Source: Teichococcus wenyumeiae (GTDB lineage Bacteria > Pseudomonadota > Alphaproteobacteria > Acetobacterales > Acetobacteraceae). Taken from it: a stretch of 49,077 bases of DNA. A model generated the notes under the pieces. It worked only from the letters and a program-made list of their open reading frames with translations. It had not been told where the DNA came from and searched no databases. The position numbers were made by a program, and so were the translations under genes. The stretch spans positions 1 through 49,077 of the forward strand of contig NZ_RFLX01000026.1 in NCBI RefSeq assembly GCF_003696345.1, written 5' to 3'. How positions within the stretch are numbered: the first letter of the stretch is position 1; every line of letters starts with the position of its first letter. Positions 34,472-40,400 of the stretch are shown here, in pieces.

Positions 34472-37400
34472 ATGAAGCTGGACAATGTCGCGGACATCTA
34501 TCCGCTGTCGCCGCTGCAGCAGGGTATCCTGTTCGAAGCCCTGGTGGGAGAGCGGCGGGACGCGCTGTACGTCGAGCAGTTCGGTTACCGCCTGCGCGGG
34601 CCGCTGTCGGTGGCCGCCTTCCGCGCCGCCTGGCAGGCGCTGCTGGATCGCCACGCCGCGCTGCGCACCGCCTTCTTCTGGGACGGGCTCGACAAGCCGG
34701 TGCAGGTGGTGCGCAAGGCACTGCCGCTGCCCTGGACCGAGCTGGACTGGCGCGACCGCGATGCCGCCACGCAGGCGGCGGCGATCGGGGCGCTACAGGA
34801 CGCCGACCGCACGGCCGGCTTCGCCCCCGAGCAGGCGCCGCTGATGCGGCTGACCCTGGCGCGGCTGGGGGAAGAGGAATGGTTCTTCCTGTGGTCGCAC
34901 CACCACCTGCTGCTGGACGGCTGGTGCATCCCCATCCTGGTGCGCGAATTGATCGACCTCTACAACGCGGCACTGCGCGGGCAGCCGCCGGCGCTGCCGC
35001 CGACGCGCCCCTACCGGGATTACATCCGCTGGCTGCAGCAGCAGGACGCGGTGGCCGCGGAAGCCTATTGGCGCCGCCTGCTGCAGGACTTCGCCGCGCC
35101 GACGCCGCTGCTGGCCAGCCTGCCGCCCGTGGCTGCCGGCGCCAGCACCGGAGCCGGCCACCGCGAGCGGCGGCTGCCGACGGATCTGGGCACTGCCCTG
35201 GAGCAGATGGCGCGGCAGCACCGGCTGACGCTGAACACCGTGTTCCAGGGTGCCTGGGCCCTGCTGCTGGCGCGGATCTGCGACGTGGACGAGGTGGTCT
35301 TCGGCGCCACCGTCTCCGGCCGGCCGCCAGAGTTGCGCGGCGTCGAAGGCATGGTCGGGCTGTTCATCAACACCCTGCCCGTGCGCGTCGACATCCGGGA
35401 AGGCGAGGCGCTGGTGCCCTGGCTGGCCCGGCTGCAGGATGCCCAGCGCGACCAGGATGCCTATGGCCACAGCCCGCTGGCCGAGATCCAGCGATGCAGC
35501 GCCGTGCCGGGCGGCACGCCGCTGTTCGAGACGCTGCTGGTGTTCGAGAATTTTCCCCTGACCGACGAGGCGATGAGCCAGAGCCTGGAAGGCGGCATTC
35601 GGGTGGAAACGCTGAGCGTGGTGGAGCGCACCGGCTATCCGCTGGCGCTGGCCGTGCTGCCGGGTGAGCAGATCCTGCTGCGCTTCTACCATGACGGCGC
35701 GCGCGTGGCGGCGGAGACAGTGGACTGGCTGGCGGCGCTGCTGGAAACCGTGCTGCGCCGCATGGTGGCGGACCCCGCCGCCGAGCCGCTGCGCCTGCCG
35801 CTGGCGGATGCCACACCCGCCGCCGCCGCCCCCGCCATCTTTCCGGTCGCATGCCTGCACCACCTGTTCGAAACCGTCGCTGCCCGCGTGCCGGATGCCG
35901 TCGCCGTTGCGTTGGTGGACGATGCCGGCCACCGGGCCGGGGCTCCCTTGAGCTATGCGGCGTTGAACGCCGCGGCCAACCGCCTGGCGCACGCCCTGCG
36001 CGCACGCGGCGTGGGGCCGGAGGTTCTGGTGGGCCTGCGGCTGCCGCCGGGGCCGATTCTGCTGACGGGCATGCTAGGCATCCTGAAGGCGGGCGGCTGC
36101 TATGTGCCGGTGGACCCGGCGCAGCCCGAGGAACGGCAGGCGATGATCCTGGAGGATGCCGGGGTCAGCCTGCTGGTGACCGCCGCCGCCCTGCCGCCGT
36201 TGCCCGGCCCAGGCACCTTTCCATGTCTCTGCCTGGATGACGGCGCGGCGCTGGACGGCATGCCGGACACCGACCCCGGCGTGGCCCTGGACCCTTCCGC
36301 CGCCGCCTATGTCATCTACACCTCCGGCTCCACCGGCCGGCCCAAGGGCGTGGTGGTGGAGCACGCCCAGGTGGCCCGGCTGTTCGCCGCGACGGCGCAG
36401 TGGTTCGGCTTCGGCCCGTCCGACACCTGGGTGCTGTTCCATTCCGCGGCCTTCGACTTCTCGGTCTGGGAGATCTGGGGCGCGCTGCTGCATGGCGGCC
36501 GCCTCGTGACGGTGCCCCACCTGCTCTCCCGCGCCCCGCGCGAGTTCCACGCCATGCTGGGGCGGGAAGGGGTCACGGTGCTGAACCAGACGCCCTCCGC
36601 CTTCCGCCCGCTGATGGAGGCCGATGCGGCGCTGGGCACGCCGCTGCCGGCCCTGCGGCTGGTGATCTTCGGCGGGGAGGCCCTGGACCTCGCCAGCCTG
36701 GCACCCTGGTTCGCCCGCCATGCGGAGGACGCGCCACGGCTGGTCAACATGTACGGCATCACCGAGACCACGGTGCATGTCACCGCCCATGTCATCCGCG
36801 CCGCCGACGCCGTGCCGGGCCCCAGCCTGATCGGCGAGGCGATCCCGGACCTGTGCCTGCAGGTGCTGGACCGCTTCGGCGCGCCCGTGCCGCCCGGGCT
36901 GCCGGGGGAGCTGCATGTCGGCGGTGCGGGCGTGGCGCGCGGCTATCTCGGCCGGCCGGAGCTGACGGCGGAACGCTTCCCGACCGATGCTACCGGCCGG
37001 CGCACCTACCGCAGCGGCGACCTGGTGCGCCGGTTGCCCGGCACGCCGCCGCGCTATGCCTATCTCGGCCGCGCGGACCACCAGGTGAAGATCCGCGGCT
37101 ACCGCATCGAGCCCGGCGAGGTCGCCGCGCATGTGTCGGCGCATCCGGGCGTCGCGGAATGCCATGTGCTGGCGGAGCCGGAAGCCGGGACTGGCTCCAA
37201 CCGGCTGGTGGCCTATGTGGTGCCGCATCCCGTGCGGGCCGCGGCCGTGCGGCGCGGGCTGCGGCGGGACGCGGCGCCGGCCGGGGCGACCACCCGCCTG
37301 CCAAACGGCCTCCGCGTGGCGGAGCTGAACGGCAACGAGACCAGCTTCCTGTTCCGCGAGATCTTCGAGGACCGCTGCTATCTTCGGCACGGGCTGACGC

Positions 37401-40400
37401 TGCGGCCGGGCGACGTGGTGTTCGATGTCGGCGCCAATATCGGCCTCTTCTCGCTGTTCGCGGCGGAGGAGACCGACCACCGCGCGCGCATCCATGCCTT
37501 CGAGCCGGCGGAGCCCGTGCACGCCGTGCTGGCGCGCAACTTCGCCCTGCACGGGATCGCGGGCACTGCTGAGGCAGTGGGCCTGGCCGAGCACGAGGGC
37601 GAGGCGGCGCTGCGCTATTTCCCGCACCTCTCCATCATGTCCGGCCGCGGGGCCGAGGCAGGGGCGGTCCGCGACACGGTGCTGGCCTATGAACGCGACC
37701 GAGGCGCCGGCGCGGTCGCCGAGGACGTGCTGGATTACCGCCTGGAAAGCGAGCTGCTGCGGGCCCGCTTCACGACCCTCTCCGCCGCCATGCGCGAGCG
37801 CGGGGTGGAGCGCATCGATTTCCTGAAGATCGACGTGGAGGATGGTGAGGCCGAGGTGCTGCGCGGCATCGCGCCGCAGGACTGGCCGCGCATCCACCAG
37901 GTGGTGGTGGAGGTGCACGATGCCGGCGGCCGTGCGGAGGCGGTGGCCGCGCTGCTGCGGGGCCAGGGATTCACCGTGGCGGCGGAAGCGCCGATGGGCG
38001 CTGGCGGTGCCGTGCCCCTGGTCAATCTTTACGCCCGCCGGGGCGCGCCGCGCCCGGCCGTGGAGGAGGACGGGGAGCGCTGGAGCCGGCCGGACGCGCT
38101 GGTGGCGTCCCTGCGCGACGCCCTGGGCCGCGCGCTGCCCGCGCACATGATGCCCGCCGAGTTCCGGTTGCTGGATGCCATGCCCCTCACCGGCAACGGC
38201 AAGGTCGACCGCCGCGCGCTGGCGCGCCACGCAGTGGCGGAACTGGCCGCGCCGGTGGCGCTGCCCCCCATCGGCGAGGACGAGGTGCTGCTGGCGGCGA
38301 TCTGGGCCGAGGTGCTAGGGCGGGATGCCGCCCGCCCCCTGGGCCGGGACGAGAATTTCTTCGAGCTGGGCGGGCATTCACTGCTGGCCACCCGCGTTGC
38401 ATCCCGCGTGCGGGACGCCTTTGCCGTGGACCTGCCGATCCGCGAGGTGTTCGAACATCCCACGGTGGCGGCGCTGGCGGCCTGCCTCGCCGCCCATCGC
38501 CGGCGGGGCGGCGCGCCTGTCGTGGCCCTGCCCGCCGTGACGTCCGACCCGGCGGCGCGGCACGAGCCCTTTCCGCTGACCGAGATCCAGCAGGCCTACT
38601 GGCTCGGCCGCGACACCGGTTTCGAGTTGGGCAACGTGGCCACCCATGGCTACCTGGAGGCCGATTGCCCTGGCCTGGACCTGCCGCGCTTCGAGCAGGC
38701 TTGGCAGCGCCTGGTGGAGCGGCACGACATGCTGCGCATGGTGGTGCTGCCGGGCGGGATGCAGCAGGTGCGCCCCCCGGCCGCGCCCTATCGCATCGTG
38801 GTGCAGGACCTGCGCGGCTGTCTCGCCCCCGGGCGGGAGGCGGCGCTGGCGGACTGGCGCGCGGTTCTGTCGCACCAGTTGCTGGACGCGGCGGAAGGGC
38901 CGCTCTTCGACCTGCGCGCCTCGCTGCTGGACGGGGATCTCACCCGCCTGCACCTGAGCATCGACGCGCTGTGGGGCGATGCGCACAGCCTGCGCGTGCT
39001 GATGGCCGAGCTGTTCCAGCTCTACCACGCCCCGGCCACGGCATTGCCGCCGCTGGAGCTGACCTTCCGCGACTACGTGCTGGCCGAGCAGGGCTGGCGC
39101 GACACGCCGTGGTACGCGGAATCCCTGCGCTACTGGCAGGAGCGGCTGGCCGATTTCCCGCCGGGTCCGGACCTGCCGCTGGCCACCAGCCCTTCCGCGC
39201 TGCGGAACCCGCGCTTTGATCGCCGCGCCGGCCGGCTGGAGGCCGCCGATTGGCAGGCGCTCAAGCAACGCGCGGCCCGTGCCGGCATGACGCCCACTGG
39301 CGTGCTGCTCGCGGCCTTCGCGGATGTGCTGACGGCCTGGAGCAAGAGCCCGCGCTTCACCATCAATCTCACGCTGTTCAACCGGCATCCGGTGCACCCG
39401 GCGGTGAATCGGGTGGTGGGGGACTTTACGTCCCTGGTGCTGCTGGCGGTGGACAATGGCCCGGCCGCGACCTTCCAGGCCCGCGCGCGCCGGCTGCAGC
39501 GGCAGTTGTGGCAGGATCTGGACCACCGCTATGTGAATGGCGTGACGGTGCTGCGGGAACTGGCGCGGCGCAACGGCGGAACCCCGGTCGCGATGCCCGT
39601 GGTCTTCACCAGCACCCTGGCGCTGGCGGCGGGCAGCGAGGCCGCGGCCCCGCCGGGGGAGGTGGTGTTCAGCATCACTCAGACACCGCAGGTCTGGCTG
39701 GACCACAAGGTGTCCGAGGCCGGCGGCGCGCTGAAGTTCGAGTGGGACGCGATCGAGGCGCTGTTTCCGCCGGGCATGCTGGACGCGATGTTCCACGACT
39801 ACGCGGCGCATCTGCTGCGCCTGGCGCAGTCTGATACCGCCTGGAAGGAGAACAGCGCGGAACGGCTGCCGCCCCCGGCGCAGATGGCGGCCCGCAACGC
39901 GGCTAACGCCACGGCGGCGCCGCTGCCCGCCGGGCTGCTGCACCAGCCCTGGCTGGATGCGCTGCCGGCAGCCGGCGCGCGCCTTGCGGTGCTGGATGCG
40001 GAGGGCACCCTGACGCACGACGCCCTGGCCGCCCGCGCCCGCGCCGTGGCGGCGCAACTGGGACCATTGCCCGCAGGCCAGCCCGTGGCCGTGGTGATGG
40101 AGAAGGGCTGGGCGCAGCTGGCCGCCTCGCTGGGCGTGCTGATGGCCGGCGGAGCCTATGTGCCGCTGGACCCCGAGCTGCCGCGGGAGCGGCTGGCGCA
40201 ACTGCTGGCGCGCCTCGACGCCCGAGTGGTGCTGACCCAGCCATGGCTGCGGGACCGGCTGCCCTGGCCCGCGGAACTGCGGGTCATGGCGGTGGAGGCA
40301 GGGCCGGCCCGACCGGATGCCGCGCCGGATGCTGCGGCGGCGGCGGCGCACGACCTGGCCTATGTCATCTTCACCTCCGGCTCCACCGGCCAGCCCAAGG

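What the first reader, a model, noticed from the sequence alone, without database searches (positions are those of the whole stretch)
37290..38000. FkbM-family methyltransferase fold inserted into a Thr-specific adenylation domain, immediately before a Cys heterocyclization module
The A domain has a textbook Thr code (DFWNIGMVHK). Between A8 and A9 it carries about 240 aa with FkbM-like motifs (FDVGANIGLFS, IHAFEP, IDFLKIDVEDGE) instead of the usual N-MT-type insert seen in the two upstream modules. FkbM-type enzymes O-methylate hydroxyls, so O-methyl-Thr is the natural prediction. The methylated residue is then passed to a Cy domain for thiazole formation. I do not know of an FkbM-type embedded domain in NRPS that has been characterised, so this may be an uncharacterised tailoring arrangement.
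Basis: partly seen in the sequence, partly recalled or inferred. Interest (0 to 1): 0.7.

Follow-up and report, generated by a model that had tools for sequence, protein, structure and literature searches.

The report
Threonine O-methyltransferase embedded in NRPS module
A peptide-assembly enzyme in an orphan gene cluster of a Roseomonas-group bacterium has an FkbM-type methyltransferase spliced into its threonine-loading domain, which most likely makes O-methyl-threonine just before a thiazole ring is built; this arrangement belongs to a catalogued, widespread and partly characterised class, so it is a new member, not a new kind.

Summary
ORF6 (34472-43276, +) reads C-A(M)-PCP-Cy-A(Ox)-PCP-TE. 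The first A domain has the Thr code DFWNIGMVHK. Between motif a8 (aa 866) and a9 (aa 1222) it carries a ~303-aa insert. The insert core (aa 940-1181, nt 37289-38014) passes PF05050 and TIGR01444 and is 48% identical to FkbM itself (E 9e-67). The O-methyl-Thr prediction is well supported. All family-invariant residues are kept. The domain scores best against M domains hosted by Ser/Thr A domains. It is conserved like the other catalytic domains in a 62%-identical orthologue.

The novelty claim fails. This is the 'family 2a' interrupted A domain with a 'type II' M domain (motif DVGx(N/H)xG) of Lundy et al. 2020. KtzH and ColG, both acting on Ser, are biochemically characterised. KtzH, FrsG (N,O-dimethyl-Thr of FR900359), AmbE and an aurantimycin NRPS are listed PF05050 hits in MIBiG. 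Of the 150 best 50%-cluster representatives, 129 have the domain inside an A domain, 24 of the coded ones with Thr codes. Three of these have a Thr-coded host followed by a Cy domain.

The cluster, from Teichococcus wenyumeiae, has no known product. Verdict: new member of a known kind, low interest.

The parts
34472..43276 (+). ORF6, terminal NRPS, 2934 aa: C-A(M)-PCP-Cy-A(Ox)-PCP-TE
   Evidence: Pfam Condensation x2, AMP-binding x2, Methyltransf_21, PP-binding x2, Nitroreductase, Thioesterase.
34490..35782 (+). C domain (HHHLLLDG at aa 143). It follows the terminal E domain of ORF5, so it is presumably a D-donor (DCL) type.
   Evidence: The DCL assignment is inferred from the upstream E domain and was not tested.
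35867..37204 (+). A domain core, motifs a1-a8, with specificity code DFWNIGMVH(K) = Thr
37205..37225 (+). Boundary strand LVAYVVP, matching the A/M boundary motif L(V/A/I)(A/G)(Y/F)xxx
   Evidence: motif from PMC8341866.
37226..38134 (+). Whole insert between the a8 strand and a9 (aa 919-1221, 303 aa), made of linker, M domain and linker
   Evidence: AF2 model: pLDDT above 90 for about residues 30-260 of the 300-aa query, with low-confidence linkers at both ends.
37289..38014 (+). FkbM-homologous methyltransferase core (aa 940-1181), a class I Rossmann SAM-MT
37424..37444 (+). SAM-binding motif DVGANIG, the type II form DVGx(N/H)xG
   Evidence: motif from PMC8341866. D985, G987, N989 and G991 are 100% invariant in 84 relatives.
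37910..37921 (+). Conserved EVHD motif (E1147 invariant), a candidate catalytic acid/base region
   Evidence: for conservation. The catalytic role is inference only.
38135..38212 (+). A domain motifs a9 (LPAHMMP) and a10 (NGKVDR, K1244)
38291..38488 (+). PCP1 (GGHSL; Ser1303 is the phosphopantetheine site), carrier of Thr and O-Me-Thr
38534..39901 (+). Cy (heterocyclization) domain with DALWGD in place of HHxxxDG
39923..42100 (+). Cys-coded A domain (DLYNLSLIW) with an FMN-oxidase (PF00881, nt 41444-41953) inserted before a9 (LPGYMLP)
42500..43255 (+). Thioesterase domain (GHSLG), which releases the chain; PCP2 lies just upstream (GGNSL at nt 42311-42325)
172..34466 (+). Upstream assembly line. 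ORF1: FAAL/A-ACP-KS-AT-DH-cMT-KR-ACP. ORF2: Cy-A(Ox)-PCP. ORF3: KS-ACP-aminotransferase-C-A-PCP. ORF4: C-A(nMT)-PCP. ORF5: dock-C-A(nMT)-PCP-E-C-A-PCP-E.

Best explanation
ORF6 module 1 is a bifunctional 'interrupted' adenylation domain of the known family 2a, which carries a type II, FkbM-family M domain. Shown here: the domain order, the Thr specificity code, FkbM-family membership and retention of all family-invariant residues. Inferred by analogy with KtzH: the A domain adenylates L-Thr and loads it on PCP1 (Ser1303). The M domain, which sits in the a8-a9 loop of the small A subdomain, then uses SAM to methylate the beta-hydroxyl of the PCP-bound threonyl thioester, giving O-methyl-Thr. 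The C domain joins it to the upstream chain, whose last residue is from an Asp-coded module followed by E (predicted D-Asp). The Cy domain condenses the chain onto Cys-S-PCP2 and cyclodehydrates it. The oxidase embedded in the second A domain then makes the thiazole. The TE releases a product ending in a 2-(1-acylamino-2-methoxypropyl)thiazole-4-carboxyl unit. The product of this Teichococcus wenyumeiae cluster is unknown.
For: Family membership. PF05050 scores 48.7 against a cutoff of 22.7. TIGR01444 scores 83.6 against 37.7. The insert is 48% identical to FkbM, 43% to RapI, 43% to LptK and 37% to the OciA O-MT domain, all of them hydroxyl O-methyltransferases (functions from PMC9259500 Suppl. 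Table 5).

Literature class. A8-Ms(O,Ser/Thr)-A9, SAM motif DVGx(N/H)xG and the boundary motif all match. KtzH methylates Ser after loading on the T domain. FrsG links a PF05050 domain to N,O-dimethyl-Thr.

Integrity of the domain. All 100%-invariant residues are kept, and only 6 of 52 conserved columns differ, all conservatively. The M domain is 56.8% identical in the 61.8%-identical orthologue P0142. That is within the 52-72% range of the other catalytic domains.

Subtype. M domains cluster by host A code. The window's M scores 276 bits against the Ser/Thr-hosted profile, 258 against Asp/Glu-hosted and 207 against Gly-hosted.

Recurrence. P0142, P0267 and P0227 have Thr-coded A(FkbM)-PCP-Cy. 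Eight Thr-coded hosts occur among 79 genome loci.

Other points. The cluster uses a different MT type (PF08242) for its two N-methylating modules. The AF2 model is confident (pLDDT 89.6) and has a class I MT fold.
Against: There is no experiment on this protein or on any close relative; the best named relative is under 50% identical. The window's M domain is the lowest-scoring embedded member against the family profiles (276 bits against 340-430 for the others). The margin over the Asp/Glu-hosted profile is only 18 bits. The closest alphaproteobacterial M domains (L008, L020) sit in Glu-like-coded A domains. One FkbM-family enzyme, EreM, performs backbone N-methylation (PMC9259500), so family membership alone does not fix the regiochemistry. 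KtzH's own M-domain sequence could not be obtained for a direct alignment. No solved structure of this M type exists. Whether methylation happens on the aminoacyl or the peptidyl thioester is unknown.
Confidence: 0.8

Rival explanations
1. The M domain is an inactive relic that only serves as a structural spacer in the A subdomain, so plain Thr is incorporated.
For: It is the most divergent embedded member in profile scores. It has 6 deviations in 52 conserved columns, at the upper end of the range seen in 50 relatives.
Against: All invariant residues, including the SAM motif DVGANIG, E1011-P1012, N1023, K1119, E1126 and E1147, are intact, and the deviations are conservative (Y to F twice, L to F, L to A, T to R, P to E). 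Conservation in orthologue P0142 (56.8%) is like that of the Ox, PCP and TE domains. The AF2 model is confident. Low profile scores are also expected from the 73% GC, Ala/Arg-rich composition.
Confidence: 0.08
2. The FkbM-type domain methylates a different atom, for example the alpha-amino or backbone nitrogen as EreM does, or a hydroxyl installed elsewhere, rather than the Thr beta-hydroxyl.
For: EreM shows that an FkbM-family enzyme can N-methylate backbone amides. FkbM-type inserts also occur in Gly-coded A domains, which have no side chain to methylate.
Against: In Paoli's MIBiG survey, the 29 FkbM-family members retained (4 with experimental evidence, 25 by product logic) were all O-methyltransferases, and EreM was the only N-methyltransferase. 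KtzH and ColG, in the same a8-a9 position, O-methylate Ser. Where N,O-dimethylation is needed (ColG, FrsG, P0227, P0230), a separate PF08242-type N-MT sits next to the FkbM-type domain. This cluster already uses PF08242-type domains for N-methylation. The window's M groups with Ser/Thr-hosted M domains, not with the Gly-hosted clade.
Confidence: 0.05
3. O-methylation is transient: the methoxy group is a leaving group, and elimination gives dehydrobutyrine next to the thiazole.
For: None from the sequence. It is conceivable because routes to Dhb/Dha in many NRPS products are unresolved (my own background knowledge).
Against: Known products of this domain type keep the methyl ether: kutznerides, columbamides, mollemycin, petrichorins and FR900359. 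Methoxide is a poor leaving group. No candidate eliminase is seen in the window.
Confidence: 0.02

Closest known systems
KtzH module 4, A8-M(II)-A9-T (kutzneride NRPS, Kutzneria sp. 744), representative of interrupted A domain family 2a
   Same: An FkbM-family (PF05050) M domain is inserted between a8 and a9 of an A domain for a beta-hydroxy amino acid. It shares the SAM motif DVGx(N/H)xG and the LVAY-type boundary. O-methylation occurs on the carrier-bound amino acid (PMC8341866; PMC11355689; PMC9259500 Suppl. Table 5).
   Different: KtzH activates Ser and is followed by a TE. Here the code is Thr and the next domain is Cy. KtzH needs the MbtH-like KtzJ, and no MbtH-like motif is present in this window. 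A direct alignment to KtzH was not possible; the nearest proxy, Lentzea L017 with A(Ser)-M-PCP-TE, is 45% identical.
FrsG (FR900359 NRPS) and ColG (columbamide NRPS), A8-M(II)-M(I)-A9
   Same: An FkbM-type O-MT sits inside an A domain. FrsG is linked to an O-methylated threonine residue (N,O-dimethyl-Thr), so Thr O-methylation by this domain type already has a product-level precedent.
   Different: Those modules carry a second, PF08242-type N-MT directly after the O-MT and make N,O-dimethyl residues. ORF6 has only the O-MT. P0227 and P0230 in my census are the double-MT version followed by Cy.
FkbM / RapI (stand-alone 31-O- and 39-O-methyltransferases of FK506/FK520 and rapamycin) and LptK (3-hydroxy-Asp O-MT of A54145)
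   Same: 43-48% identity over the whole catalytic core, with the same motifs (LPNG..., ETxFLYxEIF, YLRHG, DVGANIG, AFEP, IDLLKIDVE, EVHD). All methylate secondary hydroxyls.
   Different: They are free-standing ~260-aa enzymes acting on released or late intermediates. They are not spliced into an A domain and do not act on a carrier-bound amino acid.
P0142 and P0267 (uncharacterised 2950-aa NRPSs from metagenome assemblies)
   Same: Identical architecture C-A(Thr, FkbM)-PCP-Cy-A(Ox)-PCP-TE. P0142 is 61.8% identical over its full length and has the same upstream ORF5-like gene, so it belongs to an orthologous cluster.
   Different: Neither the organism nor the product is known for either.

Membership tests
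FkbM methyltransferase family (Pfam PF05050 / TIGR01444) | HMM score above the curated cutoff | tested here: met
   PF05050 scores 48.7 bits against a cutoff of 22.7. TIGR01444 scores 83.6 bits against 37.7 over model positions 1-143 of 143.
FkbM methyltransferase family (Pfam PF05050 / TIGR01444) | Direct similarity to the founding enzyme FkbM | tested here: met
   BLASTP to AAF86398.1: 48% identity over 248 aa, E 8.6e-67; RapI 43%. Reference sequences were taken from PMC9259500 Suppl. Table 5.
FkbM methyltransferase family (Pfam PF05050 / TIGR01444) | Class I Rossmann-like SAM-methyltransferase fold | tested here: met
Interrupted A domain family 2a / type II M domain (Lundy et al. 2020) | M domain inserted between A-domain motifs a8 and a9 | tested here: met
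   a8 GRADHQVKIRG at aa 866, M core at aa 940-1181, a9 LPAHMMP at aa 1222, a10 NGKVDR at aa 1242.
Interrupted A domain family 2a / type II M domain (Lundy et al. 2020) | A/M boundary motif L(V/A/I)(A/G)(Y/F)xxx, with the last x often P | tested here: met
   LVAYVVP at aa 912-918; the last position is P (motif).
Interrupted A domain family 2a / type II M domain (Lundy et al. 2020) | SAM-binding motif DVGx(N/H)xG, with the middle G replaced by N or H | tested here: met
   DVGANIG at aa 985-991 (motif).
Interrupted A domain family 2a / type II M domain (Lundy et al. 2020) | Host A domain specific for Ser or Thr | tested here: met
   Code DFWNIGMVHK = Thr. That this code means Thr is established knowledge (Stachelhaus code).
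Interrupted A domain family 2a / type II M domain (Lundy et al. 2020) | Remaining published type II motifs (i, iii-vi) | not tested
   Table 1 and the supplements of PMC8341866 are not held as text. As a substitute, 46 of 52 columns conserved at 80% or more in 84 relatives are kept, including all invariant ones.
Interrupted A domain family 2a / type II M domain (Lundy et al. 2020) | Homology to the M domain of the representative KtzH | tested here: inconclusive
   The evidence is indirect only. KtzH ABV56588.1 is a PF05050 hit. A KtzH-like Lentzea locus, L017 with A(Ser)-M-PCP-TE, is 45% identical, E 7e-59. KtzH's M sequence itself could not be retrieved.
Interrupted A domain family 2a / type II M domain (Lundy et al. 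2020) | SAM-dependent O-methylation of the carrier-bound Ser/Thr | not testable with these tools
   This needs an in vitro assay or the product structure.
Type I backbone N-methylating M domain (PF08242-type, family 1) | Methyltransf_12/11/25 HMM hits and an insert of about 390 aa | tested here: not met
   ORF6 has no PF08242, PF08241 or PF13649 hit, whereas ORF4 and ORF5 do. The insert is about 303 aa.
Thiazole-forming Cy-A(Ox)-PCP module (downstream neighbour) | DxxxxD in place of HHxxxDG, a Cys specificity code, and an FMN oxidase embedded in the A domain | tested here: met
   DALWGD at aa 1498. Code DLYNLSLIW. PF00881 at aa 2325-2494, 56.8 bits.

The most novel reading that the evidence does not exclude
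The embedded FkbM-type domain does not simply leave a methyl ether on Thr. It might instead N-methylate, as the FkbM-family enzyme EreM does, or install a transient methoxy group that is eliminated to a dehydro residue next to the thiazole. Either would be new chemistry for an interrupted A domain. A weaker but much more likely novelty is that the orphan Teichococcus cluster makes a new lipopeptide scaffold ending in an O-methyl-threonyl-thiazole unit.
Probability: 0.06. Interest if true: 0.6.

Novelty: new member of a known kind. Interest (0 to 1): 0.2.

Why it matters
The finding gives a confident building-block prediction, O-methyl-Thr followed by thiazole, for an orphan nine-module PKS/NRPS line in an Acetobacterales bacterium. 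This group is little explored for natural products (PMC8776678), and the prediction helps MS-guided discovery of the product. It adds a Thr-coded example with a single M domain to a domain class whose assayed members (KtzH, ColG) act on Ser. Such a domain is a possible part for engineering O-methylated residues.

The wider census made here suggests the class reaches beyond the published 'Ser/Thr' label. FkbM-type inserts also occur in Asp-, Glu-, Gln- and Gly-coded A domains, and as tandem copies. That is the more interesting lead, but it lies outside this window. The arrangement itself is not new.

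Tried and rejected
1. Exact look-up of ORF6 and of five small downstream proteins found nothing. ORF2 and ORF4 did identify the source contig.

2. Sequence and profile searches of the PDB found no solved relative of the M domain. The BurrH hit is a repeat artefact, and the profile hits come only from the A9-PCP flank.

3. The search for homologous proteins returned only proteins shorter than about 530 aa. It therefore gave neither KtzH by name nor long NRPSs. The second search, with the Lentzea L017 M domain, was a dead end for that purpose.

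4. The supplements of Lundy 2020 and the kutzneride PNAS paper are not held. The AEM paper on puwainaphycin starter units is not held.

5. The puwainaphycin cluster paper that is held describes a strain without O-Me-Thr and no O-MT domain. It gave no Thr precedent, and neither did or 42.

6. The genome-contig scan did not return the source genome or Kutzneria among its 80 best loci.

7. I considered and rejected a canonical N-MT (no PF08242-type hit).

8. I considered and rejected a chance motif match (E 9e-67 to FkbM).

9. I considered and rejected a pseudodomain (invariant residues intact, conserved in the orthologue).

10. No MbtH-like motif was found in the window.

Full report
Source and context. 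The window is a complete 49,077-bp contig of Teichococcus (formerly Pseudoroseomonas/Roseomonas) wenyumeiae, an alphaproteobacterium of the order Acetobacterales. ORF2 and ORF4 are exact matches to RMI17545.1 and RMI17547.1 on a contig of that length. GC content is about 73%.

Six co-directional genes form a hybrid PKS/NRPS line:
- ORF1 (172-8475): FAAL/A-ACP-KS-AT-DH-cMT-KR-ACP.
- ORF2 (8544-12557): Cy-A(Ox)-PCP, with a Cys-like code.
- ORF3 (probable start 12554, to 19492): KS-ACP-aminotransferase-C-A-PCP.
- ORF4 (19489-24051): C-A(nMT)-PCP.
- ORF5 (probable start GTG 24048, to 34466): dock-C-A(nMT)-PCP-E-C-A-PCP-E, with Phe-like and Asp codes.
- ORF6 (34472-43276): C-A(M)-PCP-Cy-A(Ox)-PCP-TE.

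On the minus strand downstream lie genes for an SPFH protein, an ABC transporter, a DUF697 protein, a type II thioesterase and a PPTase. A genome-mining survey notes an octamodular NRPS and a hybrid NRPS-PKS cluster in this species' type strain but names no product (PMC8776678).

The observation. PF05050 (Methyltransf_21, FkbM) scores 48.7 bits against a cutoff of 22.7 over aa 985-1167. TIGR01444 scores 83.6 bits against 37.7 over its full length. The insert is 48% identical to FkbM itself over 248 aa (E 8.6e-67). It is 43% identical to RapI, 43% to LptK and 37% to the O-methyltransferase domain at the N-terminus of OciA. The whole insert between the boundary strand LVAYVVP (aa 912-918) and a9 (LPAHMMP, aa 1222) is about 303 aa, not 240 aa.

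I read the ten specificity residues from the motifs and from a MAFFT alignment. They are D662 F663 W666 N705 I732 G734 M760 V768 H769 K1244 = DFWNIGMVHK, the canonical Thr code. GrsA-PheA, recalled from memory, yields its published DAWTIAAIC in the same columns. That checks the mapping, but it is a sanity check rather than independent proof. The upstream N-methylating modules carry PF08242-type inserts instead. The downstream module has DALWGD in place of HHxxxDG, a Cys code and a PF00881 oxidase.

A full-length orthologue exists. P0142 (2950 aa, 61.8% identity) has the same architecture and the same Thr code. Its upstream neighbour resembles ORF5. In P0142 the M domain is 56.8% identical, within the 52-72% range of the other catalytic domains. 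This argues against a decaying relic.

How common the arrangement is. HMMER against 1.84 billion 50%-cluster representatives gives 26,877 hits at E<=1e-3 and 1,567 at E<=1e-30. Of the 150 best, 129 have the domain directly after an A-domain core. Of 79 loci recovered from GTDB species genomes, about 58 show A-core, FkbM, a9/a10, PCP in that order. They come from Actinomycetota, Cyanobacteriota, Acidobacteriota, Gemmatimonadota, Pseudomonadota and other phyla.

Host A-domain codes among the representatives are Ser 39, Thr 24, Asp 20, Gln 5, Glu-like about 6 and Gly 3, plus others. Thr-coded hosts include loci from Nostoc, Calothrix, Scytonema and Streptomyces. Xanthobacter (L008) and Azorhizobium (L020) have the same layout with a Glu-like code.

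What is already known. Lundy, Mori and Garneau-Tsodikova (2020, PMC8341866) classify exactly this arrangement as interrupted A domain family 2a, A8-Ms(O,Ser/Thr)-A9, carrying a 'type II' M domain (n=149). They describe the diagnostic SAM motif DVGx(N/H)xG and the boundary motif L(V/A/I)(A/G)(Y/F)xxx. ORF6 has both (DVGANIG, LVAYVVP).

The representative KtzH was shown biochemically to activate and O-methylate L-Ser, and ColG to N,O-dimethylate L-Ser. Interrupted A domains methylate after loading onto the T domain. O-Me-Ser in mollemycin (MomF) and petrichorin (LtzE) is attributed to embedded MT domains (LtzE's is called an O-MT with reference to Lundy's classification), though I did not confirm that they are the same FkbM/type II type.

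Paoli et al. (2022, PMC9259500) scanned MIBiG with PF05050. Their Supplementary Table 5 lists KtzH (O-methylation of serine) and an aurantimycin NRPS (O-methylation of serine). It also lists AmbE (in vitro evidence) and OciA (O-methyl-glycerate). Finally it lists FrsG of the FR900359 pathway, where N,O-dimethylthreonine is found and the O-methylation is assigned to the PF05050 domain. So an FkbM-type domain embedded in an NRPS has been characterised, and threonine O-methylation by one has a product-level precedent.

O- versus other methylation. M domains cluster largely by the specificity of their host A domain in a neighbour-joining tree. In profile scoring the window's M domain prefers the Ser/Thr-hosted profile (276 bits) over the Asp/Glu-hosted (258) and Gly-hosted (207) profiles. 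The margin is modest, and the domain is the most divergent embedded member, which fits its extreme GC and Ala/Arg-rich composition.

The closest characterised homologues (FkbM, RapI, LptK, CymP, OciA) are all annotated as methylating hydroxyl groups. In the known cases that need N-methylation as well, a PF08242-type domain is added beside the FkbM-type one. This cluster uses PF08242-type domains for its own N-methylations. The one known exception in the family, EreM, N-methylates backbone amides in a RiPP, so regiochemistry is inferred, not proven. I put O-methyl-Thr at about 0.8. An inactive domain is about 0.08, another methylation site about 0.05 and methylation-elimination about 0.02.

Mechanism. 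Shown by sequence: the domain order, the codes and the motifs. Inferred from KtzH and general NRPS logic: Thr is adenylated and loaded on Ser1303 of PCP1. The M domain in the a8-a9 loop of the small A subdomain transfers a methyl group from SAM to the beta-hydroxyl of the tethered residue. The C domain, which follows an E domain and so probably accepts a D-configured donor, adds the upstream chain. Cy condenses onto Cys-S-PCP2 and cyclodehydrates. The embedded FMN oxidase aromatises the ring to the thiazole, and the TE releases the chain.

The predicted chain has these parts in order:
- a fatty or other acyl starter with a C-methylated polyketide unit;
- a thiazole;
- a beta-amino extension;
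- residue X;
- an N-methylated aliphatic residue;
- D-N-Me-Phe-like;
- D-Asp;
- O-Me-Thr;
- a thiazole carboxylate.
The mode of release is unknown.

Verdict. The arrangement is nevertheless a catalogued, widespread and partly characterised class. It is a new member of a known kind, in an orphan cluster. Interest is low (0.2). The residual value lies in predicting the product of the Teichococcus cluster, and in the side observation that FkbM-type inserts occupy A domains well beyond Ser/Thr.

Noticed in passing
window 12554-15300 (ORF3 N-terminal PKS part): ORF3 has a KS, a short KS-AT-linker remnant (CurL/RhiE-like), an ACP and a class III aminotransferase, but no acyltransferase domain hit. 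The only AT in the window is in ORF1, and no trans-AT gene is present. How this module gets its extender unit is unclear.
   Followed up: partly
loci L021, L023, L031, L033, L035, L037, L039, L041-L043, L046, L048, L051, L053, L057, L059, L062, L063, L066, L072; proteins P0135-P0141, P0184: FkbM-type M domains are embedded in A domains whose codes read Asp (DLTK[IV]GH[IV]G), Glu-like (DAKDLGVVD), Gln (DAWQFGLID) and Gly (DILQ[LM]G[LM][IV]W), and these M domains form their own clades. This is wider than the published 'Ser/Thr' label for type II M domains. LptK and AmbE suggest that hydroxylated Asp/Glu are the substrates. The Gly-coded hosts are unexplained.
   Followed up: partly
P0135, P0136, P0139, P0140, P0141, P0147: Two FkbM-type domains sit in tandem inside a single A domain; where a host code could be read (P0135, P0136, P0140, P0141) it is Glu-like. 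I did not see this arrangement described in the papers read here.
   Followed up: no
P0013, P0016, P0288, P0299, P0307 and similar (Streptomyces, Sorangium); L049, L068: Free-standing proteins of about 460-510 aa consist of an FkbM domain, an a9/a10-like segment and a PCP, without an A-domain core. They look like split or trans-acting versions of the interrupted module.
   Followed up: no
L008 (Xanthobacter sp. AM33) and L020 (Azorhizobium sp. AG788): These alphaproteobacterial loci have the same C-A(FkbM)-PCP-Cy-A(Ox)-PCP layout as ORF6, and their M domains are among the closest (46-49% identity). [quoted passage not shown]
   Followed up: partly
L080 / L081 (ENA ERZ27249379 k141_46422; Logan SRR1917225_2153): An orthologous cluster end from an unidentified organism. 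It has an ORF5-like 3500-aa gene followed by P0142 (61.8% identical to ORF6), then unrelated genes (CAP, MmgE/PrpD).
   Followed up: partly
window 43319-48892, minus strand: Likely accessory genes of the cluster: SPFH/Band 7 protein (43319-44659), ABC transporter (44656-46353), DUF697 protein (46558-47163), type II thioesterase (47238-47921) and Sfp-type PPTase (48110-48892). No MbtH-like motif occurs anywhere in the window, although KtzH needs one.
   Followed up: partly
window 12425-12557 and 23232-24051: The mechanical ORF starts of ORF3 and ORF5 overlap the preceding genes. Likelier starts are GTG 12554 and GTG 24048, each overlapping the upstream stop codon and preceded by GGAGG-like sequences. 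This suggests translational coupling.
   Followed up: partly
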